Shown one piece after another: positions 1,746 to 12,088 of a stretch of DNA of 12,088 nt (position 1 is its first letter; each line of letters starts with the position of its first letter). The position numbers and the translations under genes are program-made. This stretch comes from Gemmatimonadota bacterium. GTDB taxonomy: Bacteria > Latescibacterota > UBA2968 > UBA8231. Location of the stretch: the NCBI GenBank assembly GCA_038128265.1, contig JAYPJE010000094.1, forward strand, positions 1-12,088, written 5' to 3'. The notes beneath the pieces are model-generated. The model had not been told where the DNA came from. It worked only from the letters and a program-made list of their open reading frames with translations, and ran no database searches.

Positions 1746-2234
1746 CTAGTTGTCGTCGTCCTGATTCATTAGGGGATGGGAGAATTCACCCTCGTCTTCG
1801 CCAAACCAGCGGCGCGGGCGCTGGCGCGTGTAGGAGGGGATGCGGTGCTGCTCTTCAGCTTCTTGGCAAGCCACACAGAGCCGAGCCGTCGGCAGGGCTT
1901 CCAGCCGCGCTTTGGGAATAAAGGGACAGGTAGCACAGAGCTTTAGCTCCGTTTCCATACAGGCTTCGCAGTGACCGTACGAACCGTTTTCCAGCTTCTC
2001 CAGCGCAACCGTCACCTCTTCTAACTCACGTCGCTCTGTATCGCCTAGCGCAACCAGCAGCTCCATGGCGCCCGCCTCGACGGCGCGGTCTAGGTCGTCG
2101 GCCTTGGGATCCTGCAGCTCGTCGATCTCCTGCTCCGTGCCGTCCAAGTCGCTCATCAGCTCGGCTCGGCGCTCCAACAACAGCTTCTTGACCTTTTCGC
2201 GTTCCCTTTTGTTCAGCGCAGTCTTCTTGGCCAT
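1746..2234 (-). CDS. TraR/DksA C4-type zinc finger transcriptional regulator (162 aa)
   Basis: Coiled coil with a DxxDxA tip motif (DDLDRA), followed by ALEKLENGSYGHCEAC...IPKARLEALPTARLCVACQE. GAGAGGA RBS just upstream of the ATG. Confidence 0.92.
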   Translation of the reverse strand: MAKKTALNKREREKVKKLLLERRAELMSDLDGTEQEIDELQDPKADDLDRAVEAGAMELLVALGDTERRELEEVTVALEKLENGSYGHCEACMETELKLCATCPFIPKARLEALPTARLCVACQEAEEQHRIPSYTRQRPRRWFGEDEGEFSHPLMNQDDDN

Positions 2235-2352: not shown

Positions 2353-3126
2353 CTATTCTTGCGTGCCGATGGCCTGCTCGCGCTCTAAATCCCGCAGGCG
2401 GTCGCGCAAATCGGCCGCGCGCTCAAACTGATCGCCCTCGACGGCGGCACGCAGCTCCTCGCGCAGCTGCTCTAATTGACTCATGGGGCGCGCACTCTCG
2501 ACCTCGGTCTCCCATTCGCGCAGAAAGTGCAGCTCGGGACACTCTTCTAGCTGGTCAAAACGCCCGGTCTTGCGCAGGTAGTCTTCAATCTCGACAATGC
2601 CACCGCGAATCACTCCAAGCGCCTTTTTGTGCTCTTTCCCGTCTAGATGGGAGAGCACCCTCGCCTGAATGCGGTGCGCCGTGACAAACGGCGTGTGCTG
2701 TTCGGCCATCTGGCGGTCCTCTTCGGCTTCGGCATACTGATAGCACATGTCGAGAATAGCCAAGTTGTGGCGCGCATCGCGCTCGGCTAGGGCATACTCC
2801 TTCAGCTCAAAAAAGCTGATGCGCCGCCAGTAGAACTTCATCGCTTCCTGCGCCAATTCCCAGCAATCGTCGCGCGACAGCGCAAACGTACCGGGCCCAT
2901 GCTCCCCCTCCCAGCCCTCCAACTTGTCTCGGTAGTAGTCGAGCAACGAGCGATAGCCGTGCGGCCGCTCGCCGTCGGGACGCCCTTCCCACTCCAACTG
3001 CATCACGCCCAAGTCCATGCGAATCTGGATCTTATCCAGCCCGTCGCGTCCCTCTGCCTTGCGCACGCGCAGCTCGCCGGGCGCGTATTCCCAACCGCTC
3101 AATATGGGGCTGATATCGTTATCCAT
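2353..3126 (-). CDS. Conserved hypothetical protein with C-terminal UvrB/UvrC (UVR) coiled-coil motif (257 aa)
   Basis: ORF 2353..3177, probable start ATG 3126 (MDNDISPILSGWEY). The C-terminal LEQLREELRAAVEGDQFERAADLRDRLRDLE is a typical UVR motif. The N-terminal KIQIRMDLGVMQLEWEGRPDGERPHG resembles an uncharacterised family I recall from Planctomycetota/Verrucomicrobiota-type genomes. Confidence 0.85.
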   Translation of the reverse strand: MDNDISPILSGWEYAPGELRVRKAEGRDGLDKIQIRMDLGVMQLEWEGRPDGERPHGYRSLLDYYRDKLEGWEGEHGPGTFALSRDDCWELAQEAMKFYWRRISFFELKEYALAERDARHNLAILDMCYQYAEAEEDRQMAEQHTPFVTAHRIQARVLSHLDGKEHKKALGVIRGGIVEIEDYLRKTGRFDQLEECPELHFLREWETEVESARPMSQLEQLREELRAAVEGDQFERAADLRDRLRDLEREQAIGTQE

Positions 3127-3187
3127 GCGCGCTAAAAACCCTGAGGGAATGGACGTTTGAGGCCCTGTTGGACGCAAGATCGGCCTT

Positions 3188-6725: not shown

Positions 6726-8955
6726 CGACGCGAAACGCGCTGCGCACCGCGCGCTCGTTACCCGCCATATCGCGCACACGCACCGTCCACTCGTGCGGCC
6801 CCGGCGCCAGATCCTGCGATGGCCGTGCGCGCACCGTCTTTGCCTCTGGATCGTATTCGGCAATCAGCGCCTGCCCGTTTAACTCGATGGTGATGTCCTC
6901 TTCGCGACCGATGCCGCTGCCCGCATCGTCAATCCGCGCGCTCAGTCTGGGACGCCGATCTGCTATGCGAGTGTCCCGGCGCGGGCGCAGTCCGTCGACC
7001 TCAGGCGCGCGCGCGTCGCGCAGGAGCGCAAAGCGCCCCAGCCGACGCAGCGACGCGCCAACGGCATCCTCCTGGCGCTCGCTGCCGACCAACCCCCACT
7101 GCGCCTCGCCCACCGCTTGATAGAGACCGACCTGGGCGTCCTCGCAGACATTCGGCGCACAGCGCAGCCACACGCCCACGCGCGCATCAAACGGCACGTC
7201 TTCTGGGCCAAGCGCATAGCCCGAGCCGACGGCGACTAACCCGTCCGGCACCTGCGGCACAAAGCGCTCGGCCTGCGGAAAGACGATTTTGTAGGCCGAG
7301 CGCTTGGCAAAGTCCAACGCCACTTCCCGATTGGCCAATTCAACGCGCCGCGCCGCCCCCGGCCGCACGGCCACTTGGTCCAATTTGATGGAACGACGCC
7401 GGTCGCCCAGCGCAACTGTCACTTCGATGCGATCACCCGGCTCGTGTCCCAGCGGCACATATACCTCATAGGTGCGCTGGGCGACCTGGCGTGGCCACAG
7501 CACGCGCTCGCCCACCAGCACGCGCGGCTGCCGGCTGAGCACATCGCTTGAGAGCAAGCGCAACTGGACCGCATCGGCGCGCGCACGGCGCTCGATTTTC
7601 ATAGCGTCCAGCGCGGCTGCGTTCGTAGGCGGCACCGCGCAGACAAGCGAATCCACTCCGCCCTTTGCATCGCGCACCAGCAGCTTCCAACGCCCCCTTT
7701 GCGCACCGACATCCCAGCGCTGCAGGCCAGCCGATGCGGCCACTTCGCGCGCGCTGTGCAGCTCCCATATACCCTTCTTGCTCTGGCGGTAAACCTCACT
7801 GCGCAGCAGGGCGTCATCGTCGTCAGCTATACTTCCTTCTATAGCCCAACCATCCTGGCGCTCTACTACGGCAACGGCGCGCAGGCTCGGCACATCGTTG
7901 ACGGCAATATGCAGACGCGCACGGGCGCGGTTGTCATTGGCGTCAACAGCAAAAACCTCGATCTCATGTATCCCCTCCGAGAGAAAGCCCGGACCGGTGC
8001 CCGCAGCGCTGCGCAGCAACCCGTCGCCGGGGCTCTGGTAAAATTCCAGACGGCTGCCGGGCGGACGAAAGAGGGCGTGGAATCGCCCGGTGCCACCGGG
8101 GTAATCGATGGAGAGGCGATCCAACTGCACCTGATGTCTATCGGAATAGGAGACGCGATCGTAGGACACGAGAAACGCGTCCTGACCATCGACGCGCAGT
8201 CCCAATTGGTGCGGTGCCAGCTTGTTGTTTGCCGCTTCGGCGCGATCCCACACCATGGCCGCTACGCCCACTCGACCGCGCACCTGCAGCGTATCGGACG
8301 CGCGATAGAAACCACTGGATGCGTCCCAGCGCAGCGGGACGCTGACCGGCTCAGCCCTCCCCTCGACCCGGCTACCTCGCCCCAGTGGAACCAATGCCAG
8401 GCGCTTTAGCACCGGCGGCGTCGAATCGTCTATCGAATAAGCACCCAGCAGCGGGTTGATCGGGATATTGTTGCTGTCGCGCAATTCTAGGTGGAGGTGC
8501 GGTGGGCCGGCGCCGCTCTCGCCGCTGCGGGCTATGACCTCACCGCGCCGCACCGGGATCTCGCCTTCCTCAAACCATAGGTTAACGCTGTAACGACCCG
8601 ATTCTTGCTGCGCTGCCCTGACGCGCTGCAGCGCTGGGCCGACAAAGGCCTCCAAATGGGCATAGACGGCAATCCGTCCATCGGACAGTCGCTGATACAC
8701 CGCGCGCCCGTAGCCCCACGGCGAGGTCCGCACGCGCTCAATATAGCCATCGGCGATCGCCTGCACTTCGTAGCCGGTGCGACCCCACGTTTTGATATCG
8801 ATGCCGGCGTGAAAGGCCGTCGTGCGCGACTCGCCAAACGAAGACGAAAGCGCCGGCGCTATGGGCATAGGCCACGGCAGCTCGTTGGCCAGCGCGGCAG
8901 CCGTCGACCAGCCCATTAGCAGCCATGCGGTCAGCGCGCACAACCCCTTAGGCAT
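6718..8955 (-). CDS. Secreted M23 family metallopeptidase with long C-terminal beta-rich/Ig-like region (745 aa)
   Basis: Start ATG 8955 overlaps the upstream stop (ATGCCTAA) and gives the signal peptide MPKGLCALTAWLLMGWSTAAALA. M23 zinc motifs HAGID (HxxxD), YAHL and SGAGPPHLHLE (HxH). The C-terminal DARAPEV...DAGSGI...LAPGPHEWTVRVRDMAGN looks Ig-like. Confidence 0.9.
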   Translation of the reverse strand: MPKGLCALTAWLLMGWSTAAALANELPWPMPIAPALSSSFGESRTTAFHAGIDIKTWGRTGYEVQAIADGYIERVRTSPWGYGRAVYQRLSDGRIAVYAHLEAFVGPALQRVRAAQQESGRYSVNLWFEEGEIPVRRGEVIARSGESGAGPPHLHLELRDSNNIPINPLLGAYSIDDSTPPVLKRLALVPLGRGSRVEGRAEPVSVPLRWDASSGFYRASDTLQVRGRVGVAAMVWDRAEAANNKLAPHQLGLRVDGQDAFLVSYDRVSYSDRHQVQLDRLSIDYPGGTGRFHALFRPPGSRLEFYQSPGDGLLRSAAGTGPGFLSEGIHEIEVFAVDANDNRARARLHIAVNDVPSLRAVAVVERQDGWAIEGSIADDDDALLRSEVYRQSKKGIWELHSAREVAASAGLQRWDVGAQRGRWKLLVRDAKGGVDSLVCAVPPTNAAALDAMKIERRARADAVQLRLLSSDVLSRQPRVLVGERVLWPRQVAQRTYEVYVPLGHEPGDRIEVTVALGDRRRSIKLDQVAVRPGAARRVELANREVALDFAKRSAYKIVFPQAERFVPQVPDGLVAVGSGYALGPEDVPFDARVGVWLRCAPNVCEDAQVGLYQAVGEAQWGLVGSERQEDAVGASLRRLGRFALLRDARAPEVDGLRPRRDTRIADRRPRLSARIDDAGSGIGREEDITIELNGQALIAEYDPEAKTVRARPSQDLAPGPHEWTVRVRDMAGNERAVRSAFRVVK

Positions 8956-9628
8956 CGTCCGATTTGCCTTCGTAGACACAGAGCTCCATATGCTCGCCCT
9001 CGACGCGCACATAGTGCAGCGGCTGCTCGGTCCAGGCACCCGTATTGAGGTAGCGATGTCCATCGCGCTCAATATCCATGGCCGCGTGCGTGTGGCCGCA
9101 GGTAATGGCGGTAAAGCCCTGTTCGGCGGCCGCACGCAGCGCATTCCGCGCTACGCGCTCGTTGAGCACGCGGTATAGCAACCCCCATTTCTTGGCGTAT
9201 TCGGCCACGTGCATATCGCGCCAGCCCAGCGCCACAAAGAGATGGTGCACGCGGCGAAACACCCATTTAAACACGCCGTGGCGCGGCATGACGTCGTCGA
9301 GGTCGTTGCCGTGCACGACGAGCAGCTGCCGCTCGATTGACCACTCGTCGACAAATTCGATCGCACCGGCATCGTCAATATGAAAATCGGCATCGTGGTT
9401 TCCGTAAACCCAGACCACCCGGCGCCGGTGCGACTCGGCGATCAGCTCCTGCAACACGCCGTCGTGCGCTACCGACAGCGCACGGCGGGGGTCGTCAATG
9501 ACATCGCCGTTGAGAATCAGCGTCGCCCCCTCGGGTAGTTCCCCAAGCCAAGCGCAGAACGCACGCTGATGAAAATAGCCATTACCCAGGTGTAAATCGC
9601 TAACTATATAGTAGAGCTCGTCCGCCAT
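8948..9628 (-). CDS. Calcineurin-like metallophosphoesterase, UDP-2,3-diacylglucosamine hydrolase (LpxH/YbbF)-like (226 aa)
   Basis: All five motifs are present: SDLHLG, NGDVID, GNHD, VHG and CGHTH, plus YLNTGAW. AAGGA lies just upstream of the ATG. Confidence 0.88.
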   Translation of the reverse strand: MADELYYIVSDLHLGNGYFHQRAFCAWLGELPEGATLILNGDVIDDPRRALSVAHDGVLQELIAESHRRRVVWVYGNHDADFHIDDAGAIEFVDEWSIERQLLVVHGNDLDDVMPRHGVFKWVFRRVHHLFVALGWRDMHVAEYAKKWGLLYRVLNERVARNALRAAAEQGFTAITCGHTHAAMDIERDGHRYLNTGAWTEQPLHYVRVEGEHMELCVYEGKSDDA

Positions 9629-9670
9629 TTCCTTGCCATAATACGCATACCTACTGAGTTTCTATTCTCT

Positions 9671-11146
9671 ATGAATAACGGCACTGCCCTACTAGGGCGC
9701 AAAGACGGCGAACCCGATCGCCTGCAGCCTCTCTTGGACCACTTGGGCCTGCTGCTACCCGACGAGAAGGAACGCCGCGCCTTTGCCGACTGCTCGCGCA
9801 CCCCGCTGCCGCCGTCGCTGCGCATCAATCCGCTGATCGCCCAGGCCGAGCAGCTTCACCCGACGCTGGCAGAGCGAGGCCATCCCGTTCCCTGGTGTTC
9901 AAACGGCTATGCGTTTCCCGCAGCTGAGACGCGCCTGAGCCACACCGTCGAACACGCAGCCGGCGCCTATTATCTGCAGGCCACGGCGCCGATGCTCGCC
10001 GTCGAAACCCTCGCCCCCCGGCCCGGCGAACGCGTCCTCGACCTGTGCGCGGCCCCCGGCGGCAAAACAACCCAACTGGCCGCGCATATGCGCAACAGCG
10101 GCCTGCTCATAGCCAACGAAATGAGCAAGAAGCGCATCCCCGCGCTGGTCGGCAATTTGGAGCGCTGCGGCGTCGGCAACGCCGTTATTACGCAGGCGCA
10201 GGGCACGATGCTTGCGCGCCACTTTCACAACTTCTTTGACCGCATCCTCGTCGACGCGCCCTGCAGCGGCGACGGCATCGTGCGCAAGGACCTGAGCATG
10301 CTGCGCTACTGGTCCCCGGACGACGCCCAGCGCCAGGCACAGACGCAAACCGGCCTGCTGCGCGCCGCCTTTCACATGCTGCGTCCGGGCGGCACGCTGG
10401 TCTACTCGACCTGCTCGCTGTCCGTAGAGGAAAATGAACACGTGCTGCTCGCCCTCCTCCAGCGCTACGGCGATGCGGTGGAGATACTCCCCGTTGCCGA
10501 CGTGGCCGCTCCGCCGCTGGCCAGAGCCATCGCCGCCGACCTGCCGCCGGCGCTGGGACATGCCGCGCGCGTGTGGCCGCACTGGCACGACAGCGAAGGC
10601 GCCTTTGTCGCCCACCTGCAAAAACGCGCGCCCACCGAGTGGCCCCAGGTCGCATCCGATGCGCACGCATGGCTGCGCGAAGCGGCCGACGATAGACAAA
10701 CGCTGGACGCCTGCCGCACGCTCGAACACCTGTGGCACTTCGCCATACCGCGCACGGCCGACCAGGTCGTCGCCAGCCGCGGACGCCACCTCGTCATGCA
10801 GCCAGCCGCCAGCGACAGCATCGAAGAGCACCTACCCTTTTTCGTGCGTGGGGGCATGCGCTTTGGTCGACGCCACCGCACGCACTTCTACCTGACGCAG
10901 CAGGCCGTAGCGCTGTGGGGCCATCTGGCCACCGCGCGCTGCGTCGACCTGGAATGGCCACAGGTATGCGCCCTCTTTGTCGGCGAGCCCATAGCACTGG
11001 ACAGAGCGATCGACCAGCGCGGTGAGATTATCTGCCGCTATGGTCCCTGGCCGCTGTGCCGCGCCATGGTCGAGGAGGAAGGCACGCGCCTCAACGGCAT
11101 GCTTCCACGACCCTTTTACCGCAGCGAACTGCGTCAACTCGTCTAA
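9671..11146 (+). CDS. RsmB/NOP2/NSUN family RNA m5C methyltransferase, RsmF/YebU-like (491 aa)
   Basis: GAYYLQ, VLDLCAAPGGKT, FDRILVDAPCSG and LVYSTCS...ENE, so both catalytic cysteines are present. No N-terminal NusB domain and a C-terminal extension, as in RsmF. Confidence 0.92.
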   Translation: MNNGTALLGRKDGEPDRLQPLLDHLGLLLPDEKERRAFADCSRTPLPPSLRINPLIAQAEQLHPTLAERGHPVPWCSNGYAFPAAETRLSHTVEHAAGAYYLQATAPMLAVETLAPRPGERVLDLCAAPGGKTTQLAAHMRNSGLLIANEMSKKRIPALVGNLERCGVGNAVITQAQGTMLARHFHNFFDRILVDAPCSGDGIVRKDLSMLRYWSPDDAQRQAQTQTGLLRAAFHMLRPGGTLVYSTCSLSVEENEHVLLALLQRYGDAVEILPVADVAAPPLARAIAADLPPALGHAARVWPHWHDSEGAFVAHLQKRAPTEWPQVASDAHAWLREAADDRQTLDACRTLEHLWHFAIPRTADQVVASRGRHLVMQPAASDSIEEHLPFFVRGGMRFGRRHRTHFYLTQQAVALWGHLATARCVDLEWPQVCALFVGEPIALDRAIDQRGEIICRYGPWPLCRAMVEEEGTRLNGMLPRPFYRSELRQLV

Positions 11147-11423
11147 GCAGGAAAATACTTCCCTAGACGCAGTCCCTTTCTCGTCCGAATGCATTCGCCA
11201 TCTGCCGCATTCCCCCTTTAAAACCGCACCACACGCATACAAGGGAAGCTTTTTCTCCCTACCCGCACATTTTTTCCCTCCCATGCCGTTGATCCCATCG
11301 ACGCGCTTTCAACATCTTGTGTCCTATCCGTAATCTAGCCCAACATAAGGCGAATAATCCCATGAAAAATTACGTGGTATTACATAGTTTTTTCAAATTT
11401 ATTTTTCATCATAAATAAAATAA

Positions 11424-11436
11424 AATCAATATTTTA
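11424..11436 (+). promoter_or_regulatory. IHF binding site
   Basis: AATCAATATTTTA matches WATCAANNNNTTR exactly, is preceded by an A/T tract, and lies about 30 nt upstream of the sigma54 -24 element. Confidence 0.6.
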
Positions 11437-11465
11437 TGATATTTTTGGTATTTTCTCCAACACAG

Positions 11466-11482
11466 TGGGCACACCCCTTGCA
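11466..11482 (+). promoter_or_regulatory. Sigma54 (RpoN) -24/-12 promoter
   Basis: TGGGCACACCCCTTGCA has GG(11468-69)-N10-GC(11480-81) and is close to the consensus TGGCACGNNNNTTGCW. The predicted +1 (about 11493) coincides with the first base of a hairpin. Confidence 0.7.
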
Positions 11483-11492
11483 ATAGCACCGG

Positions 11493-11581
11493 CAGACAGA
11501 ATGGTCCTCTTGTCTGGGACCCGGAGGCGGTCCTCCCCTCCCCATCATCTGCCGCTCCTCGCGCAGATGGCCTCCGGGTCC
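11493..11581 (+). ncRNA. Structured 5' leader / candidate sRNA module with CU-rich motifs
   Basis: Hairpin CAGACA(11493-98)/TGTCTG(11511-16). A perfect 12-bp stem GGACCCGGAGGC(11517-28)/GCCTCCGGGTCC(11570-81) encloses unpaired GGTCCTCCCCTCCCCAT and the inner stem CATCTGC/GCAGATG with loop CGCTCCTCGC. Confidence 0.55.
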
Positions 11582-11607
11582 TGTTTATACATGGATTTGG
11601 TGAGAAT

Positions 11608-11778
11608 ATGAACCGCACATACACGACTTATGCGGATCGCATGCGCCTACTGCTGCTCTGCATCCTATTTACCAGTTTGAGCGCACTCTTGATCGAACTG
11701 GCGGTGCAAAATACGCCATTCGAACAGGCCCATACTTCGGCAGACATAGCCCACTTGGGTGGCGCTGCCGACCCATAG
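11608..11778 (+). CDS. Small hypothetical single-pass membrane protein (56 aa), absent from the supplied ORF track
   Basis: ATG 11608 to TAG 11778: MNRTYTTYADRMRLLLLCILFTSLSALLIELAVQNTPFEQAHTSADIAHLGGAADP. GGTGAG RBS upstream. Basic residues precede a ~20-aa hydrophobic stretch. It fits exactly between the leader and the 3' hairpins. Confidence 0.6.
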   Translation: MNRTYTTYADRMRLLLLCILFTSLSALLIELAVQNTPFEQAHTSADIAHLGGAADP

Positions 11779-11789
11779 GCAAAAAGAGA

Positions 11790-11911
11790 GGGCCGGCCTC
11801 CCGCTCCCCGGGTAGGTCGGCCCCTTTCTCCCCCGCATCGGCCTCCCCCTCCCCGGGCAGGTCGATGCACCAGCTAAGCGCCGGCCTCCCACTCCTCGGG
11901 TAGGTCGGCGC
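11790..11911 (+). repeat. Three tandem 34-nt hairpin repeats with CU-rich loops (candidate cuckoo-like sRNA)
   Basis: 11790-11823 GGGCCGGCCTCCCGCTCCCCGGGTAGGTCGGCCC; 11835-11868 GCATCGGCCTCCCCCTCCCCGGGCAGGTCGATGC; 11878-11911 GCGCCGGCCTCCCACTCCTCGGGTAGGTCGGCGC. Linkers are 11 and 9 nt, and the outer stem bases covary. Confidence 0.85.
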
Positions 11912-11921
11912 CTATTTTTTT
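11878..11921 (+). terminator. Intrinsic terminator formed by the third hairpin plus T7
   Basis: GC-rich hairpin 11878-11911 followed by CTATTTTTTT, abutting the convergent ubiX stop codon. Confidence 0.6.
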
Positions 11922-12088
11922 AGTCCTCTGCAGCGCCCTTCGAACCGGTCCAGCGCGGAAAGAGCGCGTGGTCAATATCCAACAAACTACAGATGCGCCC
12001 GGCAATAAAATCGCCCAGATCGTCAAAGGTCTGGGGGCGCTGATAGAAGGCGGGCATCGCCGGCAGCACGACAGCCCCCGCCTCTGTT
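11920..12088 (-). CDS. ubiX: UbiX flavin prenyltransferase, 3' end only; starts beyond the window
   Basis: Manual translation TEAGAVVLPAMPAFYQRPQTFDDLGDFIAGRICSLLDIDHALFPRWTGSKGAAED* matches the UbiX C-terminal pattern GAxxxPxxPxFYxxPxxxxD...RW. Confidence 0.9.
   Translation of the reverse strand, partial: TEAGAVVLPAMPAFYQRPQTFDDLGDFIAGRICSLLDIDHALFPRWTGSKGAAED

What the first reader, a model, noticed from the sequence alone, without database searches (positions are those of the whole stretch)
11790..11911. Three covarying 34-nt hairpins displaying CUCC(C/U)C loops
Seen: the shared core is CGGCCTCCC-N-CTCC-Y-CGGG-Y-AGGTCG. The outer four base pairs differ between copies yet remain paired (GGGC/GCCC, GCAT/ATGC, GCGC/GCGC), i.e. 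compensatory changes. All copies keep a G-U pair and a bulged pyrimidine. The G-U would be an A-C mismatch on the minus strand, which favours function as + strand RNA. Inference: the loops are complementary to GGAG/GAGGAG ribosome binding sites and may be multivalent mRNA-pairing seeds or protein-binding sites.
Basis: partly seen in the sequence, partly recalled or inferred. Interest (0 to 1): 0.8.

Follow-up and report, generated by a model that had tools for sequence, protein, structure and literature searches.

The report
Flagellum-linked small RNA with C-rich loops
The three hairpins are the tail of an undescribed small regulatory RNA in a group of uncultured bacteria; its C-rich loops probably block ribosome binding on other messages, and its promoter appears to be controlled both by the flagellum activator and by the sensor of DNA building blocks.

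Summary
In detail: three hairpins, found once in the genome, functional on the + strand. They are not a free-standing element but the variable 3' tail of a ~430-nt sigma54 transcript. Its conserved part lies upstream, at 11516-11582: a long stem with a C-rich bulge and a CUCCUC loop (35 of 36 loci). This core occurs in 38 of 76 genomes of one family (probably Ca. Latescibacterota). All 36 loci examined have a sigma54 promoter, and 14 have no room for a gene, so the RNA is the product. Small ORFs and tail hairpins (0-5) are optional; tail loops keep CUCC(C/U)C on different stems. The RNA tracks flagella (flagellin in 33 of 38 carriers, 4 of 38 non-carriers). The promoter carries the flgB-type enhancer and tandem NrdR-like boxes; a matrix built from these boxes finds the ribonucleotide reductase promoter as top other hit. 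Best reading: an Hfq-independent anti-Shine-Dalgarno sRNA working like cuckoo/CcsR and sX13, but no Rfam member. No target was validated: flagellin and flgB sites are not conserved; flgE is a lead without covariation.

The parts
11244..11278 (+). Two enhancer-like sites (GGNAA-N3-TTTCC type), 21 bp apart, the motif of flagellar sigma54 promoters
   Evidence: Motif in 29 of 30 flgB promoters; 20 of 36 RNA promoters reach 10 bits against 8 of 360 shuffles, but this genome's own site scores only 6.6. At least one site in 33 of 34 relatives.
11307..11322 (+). NrdR-like box 1
   Evidence: All six conserved NrdR positions (C4 A6 A8 T9 T11 G13; PMC13584703, passages) in 31 of 32 loci that have boxes; same motif at the ribonucleotide reductase promoter.
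11338..11353 (+). NrdR-like box 2, 31 bp after box 1 (degenerate; T11 usually missing)
   Evidence: 5 of 6 positions in 24 of 32 loci, 6 of 6 in 1, 4 of 6 in 7.
11372..11385 (+). Third conserved near-palindrome, again 31 bp on; factor unknown
   Evidence: Conserved in position and sequence; does not fit the NrdR positions by eye.
11424..11436 (+). IHF-like site in an AT-rich spacer
   Evidence: Match to a recalled IHF consensus; AT-rich spacer seen in most relatives.
11467..11481 (+). sigma54 -24/-12 promoter (GG-N10-GC); start inferred near 11493
   Evidence: present 30-150 nt upstream of the core in 36 of 36 loci.
11493..11515 (+). 5' hairpin with a pyrimidine-rich loop (GUCCUC)
   Evidence: Fold; a similar 5' hairpin in most relatives by eye.
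11516..11582 (+). Conserved RNA core: long stem, C-rich bulge (11533-11543), apical CUCCUC loop (11553-11562), weak U-tract behind
   Evidence: Models R1/R2; 38 of 76 family genomes; covariation; CUCCUC in 35 of 36.
11608..11778 (+). Small ORF A, 56 aa, basic N-terminus then one hydrophobic segment; optional
   Evidence: differences by codon position 109/35/195 among 6 same-genus copies over 24 codons; 38 homologues; no Pfam or NCBIfam family.
11790..11823 (+). Tail hairpin 1, loop G-CUCCCC
11835..11868 (+). Tail hairpin 2, loop C-CUCCCC
11878..11921 (+). Tail hairpin 3, loop A-CUCCUC, followed by U7: probable intrinsic terminator
   Evidence: Sequence. The terminator scan did not call it; it called only a - strand site at 11802-11786.
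11920..12088 (-). 3' end of a convergent ubiX-like gene (cut by the contig end)
   Evidence: Pfam Flavoprotein; its stop found next to the RNA in 33 of 36 loci.

Best explanation
A trans-acting, Hfq-independent small RNA built from C-rich loop modules. Shown by comparison: a sigma54 promoter drives a structured RNA whose single-stranded parts (5' loop, core bulge, core loop, 0-5 tail loops) are CUCC(C/U)C-type, while stems covary or are replaced. Inferred: the loops pair with G(A/G)GGAG ribosome binding sites and repress translation; the C/U change at one loop position fits a G partner. Inferred: the three hairpins of this window add binding sites, are made by read-through of the core's weak U-tract together with small ORF A, and the last one terminates. 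Inferred: the flagellar enhancer-binding protein switches the RNA on, and NrdR, bound between enhancer and promoter, switches it off when deoxynucleotides are plentiful, so the RNA tunes the flagellar programme to the cell's replication state. Targets are not identified.
For: Stand-alone RNA: the convergent ubiX stop lies within 100 nt of the core in 14 of 36 loci; G022, G032 and G129 have promoter, hairpin, core and U7-10 only. Covariation of the core: 97.7% paired and 9 of 19 pairs with double changes on the plain MAFFT alignment; 98.2% and 14 of 19 on the model-fitted one. Tail loops 38 CUCCCC and 5 CUCCUC on at least three stem types. Flagellin in 33 of 38 carriers and 4 of 38 non-carriers while RpoN is in 76 of 76; the split recurs inside genera g14, g18 and g10. 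Enhancer shared with flgB, flgF, fliO and a flagellin promoter, not with dnaK, groES, hsp20 (labels). NrdR boxes. No Hfq in 6 genomes searched. Two salt-marsh RNA libraries each hold one contig over core plus ORF A. Precedent: sX13 and CcsR (PMC3771888, PMC8034643, passages).
Against: No target shows conservation plus covariation: flagellin site in 2 of 11 orthologue-like loci, flgB GGGGAG in 1 of 30, flgE G(A/G)GGAG in 13 of 20 but permutation p=0.51 and in only 1 of 6 genomes of the own genus. Five carriers lack flagellin and keep enhancer-like sites, so the link is not obligate. Kin are not independent; no tree-based test was run. This genome's enhancer site is weak (6.6 bits), and the top-ranked promoter is not flagellar. 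Box 2 is degenerate; only 15 of 36 loci match the published NrdR pair pattern. The RNA contigs have depth about 2, give no strand, may be DNA, and stop before the three hairpins.
Confidence: 0.55

Rival explanations
1. Protein sponge: each CUCC(C/U)C loop binds one C-rich-RNA-binding protein (for example a KH-domain or ribosome-associated factor that reads the 16S anti-SD tail), and copy number sets capacity, as in CsrB/RsmZ.
For: Variable module number (0-5 tail hairpins; an extra module 5' of the core in genus g13); short invariant loop on free stems; no covarying mRNA target; no Hfq.
Against: Loops are exact anti-SD sequences; characterised C-rich-loop RNAs act through G-rich mRNA motifs (PMC3771888, PMC8034643, passages); C/U tolerance at one position fits pairing with G. 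No candidate protein was identified.
Confidence: 0.2
2. Cis-acting leader and trailer of small membrane-protein mRNAs (attenuator, or the SD-sequestering UTRs of a type I toxin-like mRNA).
For: ORF A is short and hydrophobic and under codon-level constraint; the core has a weak U-tract where ORFs follow; in G029 the core precedes a PAS histidine kinase-like ORF.
Against: 14 of 36 loci have no room for an ORF; G003, G007, G130 and G142 keep tail hairpins without any ORF. ORF A was seen in 15 of 36 loci (my tally).
Confidence: 0.1
3. Cis-antisense control of the convergent ubiX transcript, or merely a two-way terminator array.
For: ubiX converges on the RNA in 33 of 36 loci; terminator-like site on the - strand behind hairpin 1.
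Against: G013 and G029 keep the RNA without adjacent ubiX; four non-flagellated genomes keep ubiX without the RNA; a terminator needs neither an invariant loop nor its own regulated promoter.
Confidence: 0.07
4. The - strand is the functional one: GGAG loops in the ubiX 3' UTR titrate CsrA.
For: CsrA is present here and in 26 of 38 carriers against 3 of 38 non-carriers; the - strand also folds well (z -4.44).
Against: G-U versus A-C 54:1 and 47:14 favours +; promoter and U-run are on +; 12 carriers have no CsrA hit; GGGGAG lacks the ANGGA of CsrA sites (recalled).
Confidence: 0.04

Closest known systems
Cuckoo RNAs (CcsR1-4, ar14 RF02344; Alphaproteobacteria)
   Same: Modular hairpins, anti-SD loop kept while stems vary, variable module number, co-transcription with a small ORF (PMC4615179 part 1 of 6 and passages; PMC8034643 passages).
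   Different: Loop CUCC(C/U)C, not CCUCCUCCC; a long bulged core that cuckoo RNAs lack; sigma54, not RpoHI/HII; no DUF1127 ORF; no Hfq found; best ar14 score 25.7 bits against gathering 58.8.
ar7 (RF02342)
   Same: Hairpins with C-rich loops; weak matches to the g14 tail arrays.
   Different: 32.2 and 31.2 bits against gathering 60; no match in this window.
sX13 of Xanthomonas
   Same: Three stems with apical C-rich loops, Hfq-independent, represses mRNAs with G-rich motifs near the start; motility genes in its regulon (PMC3771888 passages).
   Different: No Rfam-level similarity; other phylum; here a sigma54 promoter with enhancer and NrdR-like boxes.
CJnc230/FlmE of Campylobacter jejuni
   Same: RpoN-dependent flagellar sRNA with an anti-SD motif in a species studied without Hfq-type chaperone (last point recalled); PMC11187230 passages.
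   Different: FlmE is cut from the flgE mRNA and uses one single-stranded stretch against flgM; this RNA has its own promoter outside the flagellar clusters, several loops, and the flgM leader here has no G(A/G)GGAG.
Pxr of Myxococcus
   Same: sigma54 promoter with upstream enhancer, three stem-loops, loop needed for function, host without hfq (PMC5684412 passages).
   Different: No Rfam match to Pxr; developmental, not flagellar, context.

Membership tests
Cuckoo/CcsR/ar14 | Loop motif CCUCCUCCC in each hairpin | tested here: not met
   Tail loops are N-CUCC(C/U)C, core loop NN-CUCCUC-NN.
Cuckoo/CcsR/ar14 | Rfam ar14 gathering score | tested here: not met
   25.7 bits at best, cut-off 58.8, 13 loci scanned; none in the window.
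Cuckoo/CcsR/ar14 | 2-4 adjacent hairpins with variable, covarying stems | tested here: met
   Three here; 0-5 in relatives.
Cuckoo/CcsR/ar14 | Linked DUF1127 small ORF and RpoH promoter (CIN1 loci) | tested here: not met
   ORF A has no Pfam or NCBIfam hit, ORF B no NCBIfam hit; the promoter is sigma54-type.
REP/dispersed DNA repeat | Many dispersed copies in both orientations | tested here: not met
   3 copies, one locus, one strand; one core per genome except a tandem extra module in g13.
CsrB/RsmZ sponge | GGA loops on the transcribed strand | tested here: not met
   The + strand is favoured and shows CUCC loops.
C-rich-loop base-pairing sRNAs (sX13/RNAIII type; a working class, not a sequence family) | Conserved C-rich loops, Hfq not needed | tested here: met
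   no Hfq in 6 genomes, of which 3 are at least 90% complete with low contamination.
C-rich-loop base-pairing sRNAs (sX13/RNAIII type; a working class, not a sequence family) | Repression through G-rich motifs at target start sites | tested here: inconclusive
   No covarying target among 24 flagellar genes; genes outside the flagellar clusters were ranked in G000 only.
NrdR regulon | Two 16-bp boxes with C4 A6 A8 T9 T11 G13, 15-16 bp apart | tested here: met
   Box 1 complete in 31 of 32, box 2 one position short in most, spacing 30-32; reductase promoter recovered. Met for box 1 and spacing, only partly for box 2.
NrdR regulon | Binding by dATP/ATP-loaded NrdR and repression | not testable with these tools
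   Needs EMSA/MST and a reporter.
Type I toxin-antitoxin mRNA | Obligate small toxin ORF with an antisense antitoxin RNA | tested here: not met
   No ORF in many loci; an antitoxin promoter was not searched for.

The most novel reading that the evidence does not exclude
A small RNA that couples flagellum building to the deoxynucleotide pool: the flagellar enhancer-binding protein activates a sigma54 promoter, NrdR bound between enhancer and promoter blocks the DNA loop, and the RNA's multiplied anti-SD loops throttle hook/rod or other messages. This would be an NrdR-controlled non-coding RNA and NrdR acting on a sigma54 promoter; I found neither in search listings.
Probability: 0.3. Interest if true: 0.85.

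Novelty: new variant of a known kind. Interest (0 to 1): 0.68.

Why it matters
It defines an RNA family absent from Rfam in a phylum with hardly any cultured members, and shows modular growth of a regulator: one core, optional small ORFs, and tail hairpins whose stems differ between genera while the loop stays. NrdR is known almost only as a repressor of ribonucleotide reductase genes, although E. coli data hint at links to chemotaxis (PMC4898720, search listing only). Conserved NrdR boxes in a flagellar-type sigma54 promoter would give a direct, testable route from nucleotide status to motility. The binding test needs only purified NrdR and a 60-bp DNA.

Tried and rejected
Rfam: nothing in the window at E<=1; 4 sub-threshold hits in 13 related loci. 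Dispersed repeat: rejected. Flagellin C2:144507 as target: exact 10-nt complement of the core loop and rank 1 of 3535 start regions in G000, but kept only in G001 among 11 loci with the same divergent arrangement; the pattern search (1 of 76) was too narrow, as it missed G001, and is uninformative. flgB as target: GGGGAG 1 of 30, GAGGAG 1 of 30. Own-versus-swapped pairing for 24 flagellar genes times 2 seeds: only flgC (p=0.014) and flgL (p=0.025) with the bulge fall below 0.05, as chance gives. One search mixed flgE and flgG hits; one search replaces it. The G013 case (only CUCCCC core loop, GGGGAG at flgE) is one event. ORF A and B: no family in NCBIfam, ORF A none in Pfam, no informative hit in the ESM Atlas; the ORF B model (three helices, pLDDT 82) gave no match in Foldseek and best Z 5.7 to designed bundles, which shows neither likeness nor novelty. 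Locus L030 (one hairpin core match in a record titled Verrucomicrobiaceae) has no RNA core. 56 of 70 metagenome pattern hits had no core. The RNA runs held only 0.23 of the words and say nothing on habitat. Earlier scan findings: nothing. Literature search returned no relevant paper. Supplements were not read; cuckoo or NrdR tables there could bear on the 'not in print' statements.

Full report
Observation. The region folds far better than shuffles, more so on + (z -7.92) than on - (z -4.44). The 26-nt core has only these three matches in the 4.29-Mb genome at up to four mismatches, so it is no dispersed repeat. The window is the whole contig C94. Source labels on relatives read Gemmatimonadota and Ca. 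Latescibacterota; I infer a Latescibacterota family.

Anatomy. Between an rsmB/F-family gene (9671-11146, +) and a convergent ubiX-like gene lie, on +: a sigma54 motif at 11467-11481, a 5' hairpin, a 67-nt stem with a C-rich bulge and a CUCCUC loop (11516-11582), a 56-codon ORF (11608-11778), the three hairpins and U7. The terminator scan did not call the U7 site.

Relatives. A DNA search of 61 genomes found the locus in the genus and the upstream stem in other genera. A covariance model of the stem hit 35 of 63 other family genomes and 1 of 86 outside the family, weakly; the rebuilt model hit 38 of 76 family genomes in 16 of 18 genera. I examined 36 of these 38 loci (not G025, G027). All 36 have a sigma54 motif 30-150 nt upstream; the ubiX stop follows in 33, within 100 nt of the stem in 14. 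G022, G032 and G129 consist of promoter, small hairpin, stem and a U-run. So the RNA itself is the conserved product. The stem covaries: 9 of 19 pairs with double changes on the plain alignment of 15, 14 of 19 on the model-fitted alignment of 39 (fitted, so it leans to the structure). The apical loop holds CUCCUC in 35 of 36. G-U outnumbers A-C 54:1 in the core and 47:14 in the tail hairpins, fixing the + strand. 14 of 70 metagenome pattern hits carry the core too.

The hairpins of the finding. They are an optional tail. A script counted none in 19 of 36 loci and 1-5 in 17 (it overcounts G012 and G026, where some hits lie inside an ORF; G020 has an N gap in its array). Loops were CUCCCC 38 times and CUCCUC 5 times. 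Stems differ between genera: g14 has a straight stem of other sequence, g18 and g6 other sequences with the same 3-bp cap and 3' bulge. On 30 hand-picked hairpins, 90.6% of cells pair (shuffled 67.4%, slid registers 33-44%). G003, G007, G130 and G142 have tail hairpins with no ORF. All five carriers without flagellin have no tail.

Small ORFs. ORF A (one hydrophobic segment) shows the codon-position pattern of a real gene and has 38 homologues. A second ORF B, absent from this window, lies in 11 family genomes (28 homologues). Neither has a known family.

Link to flagella. RpoN is in 76 of 76 genomes; flagellin in 33 of 38 carriers and 4 of 38 non-carriers. Of those four, three have no full ubiX hit and one has ubiX 180 nt from a contig end, so none is a clean absence. 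Four non-flagellated genomes keep ubiX without the RNA. Kin are not independent and I ran no tree test; the split does recur within g14 (4 carriers among 5 flagellated of 31), g18 and g10. Genera g16 and g3 keep a minimal RNA without flagellin. CsrA follows less closely (26 of 38 versus 3 of 38).

Promoter. flgB promoters are sigma54-type and share a GGNAA-N3-TTTCC motif (29 of 30). The same matrix gives 10 bits or more in 20 of 36 RNA promoters against 8 of 360 shuffles; this genome scores 6.6. Conversely, sites from 34 relatives' RNA promoters rank fliO, flgB, a flagellin and flgF 2nd, 4th, 5th and 7th of 32 sigma54-like promoters here, and groES, dnaK and hsp20 21st, 26th and 30th (labels). 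The seed pattern came from the flgB motif, so this is not fully independent, and rank 1 is a non-flagellar gene. Between enhancer and promoter lie three boxes 31 bp apart in 32 of 36 loci, shifted by one helical turn in some genera. A matrix from boxes 1 and 2 of 30 relatives (G000 and G001 left out) ranks the ribonucleotide reductase promoter first after the RNA's own; symmetrised, it ranks the reductase first and the RNA's site 12th (reductase and nrdR confirmed). Box 1 has all six conserved NrdR positions in 31 of 32 loci (offset chosen by likeness, which favours this), box 2 five of six in 24; the published pair pattern matches 15 of 36 loci against 53 of 7200 shuffles (definition from PMC13584703, passages). 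The three g16 loci and G029 lack the boxes.

Expression. Two salt-marsh RNA libraries from different studies each hold one contig, 9 letters different, over 11512-11772 and 11521-11775; in the second it is the only piece laid on 8000-12088. Depth is about 2, there is no strand, DNA may be present, and both stop before the hairpins. This is a weak hint for a core-plus-ORF transcript only.

Targets. The loops are anti-SD sequences; G(A/G)GGAG stands before about 7% of called genes here (181 plus 63 of 3569). A flagellin has a perfect 10-nt site but it is not conserved. flgB fails. flgE has the site in 13 of 20 genomes, the most of 24 flagellar genes, without covariation (p=0.51) and in only 1 of 6 own-genus genomes. 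No target is established.

Comparison. It works like cuckoo/CcsR RNAs and sX13 (PMC4615179: part 1 of 6 and passages; PMC8034643, PMC3771888: passages) and sits in a regulon like FlmE (PMC11187230: passages) and behind a promoter like Pxr (PMC5684412: passages). It is a member of none: the motif differs and Rfam scores stay far below cut-off. Eight literature searches (listings only, open-licence library) showed no such RNA from this phylum and no NrdR-controlled small RNA.

Verdict. Real structured non-coding RNA of an undescribed family: about 0.9. Base-pairing anti-SD mechanism within a flagellar-type sigma54 regulon: 0.55. Boxes bound by NrdR: about 0.6. The full nucleotide-to-motility circuit: 0.3. 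New variant of a known kind; interest 0.68.

Noticed in passing
G000 sigma54-like promoters at C3:59645, C9:67879, C92:10233: dnaK, groES and a small heat shock gene have sigma54-type promoters here, so heat shock genes may depend on sigma54 in this family.
   Followed up: partly
L078:203-1384 (-) (G029): In this genome a 5'-extended form of the RNA lies directly before a PAS histidine kinase-like ORF (label by eye) instead of facing ubiX; possibly the cognate sensor.
   Followed up: no
L005:1112-1273 (-) and 10 other genomes: Small basic ORF B (LRWY..QL..LP motif, three helices) rides in the same transcript in 11 genomes; unknown family, candidate RNA-binding partner like CcaF1.
   Followed up: partly
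window 11372-11385: Third conserved near-palindrome in phase with the NrdR-like boxes; its best matches elsewhere lie at C38:26288 and before a fliM-like gene at C9:3636 (label by eye). Factor unknown.
   Followed up: partly
G000 C2:117623-121843, C2:143012-145661, C4:95581, C72:13513, C8:60449: At least eight flagellin-like genes, with a conserved divergent pair; most share one SD type, the one at C2:144507 has another.
   Followed up: partly
G000 C12:88640 and C23:18031: Two near-identical sigma54 promoters with the same -24/-12 core as the RNA promoter, each followed by a similar short uncalled reading frame.
   Followed up: no
L067, L068, L069, L070, L072 (genus g13): A duplicated CUCCUC module lies 5' of the core, so the family grows at both ends.
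   Followed up: partly
window 1746-2234 (-) and 2353-3177 (-): DksA/TraR-type zinc-finger gene and a UVR-domain gene, next to a HEAT-repeat gene; not examined.
   Followed up: no
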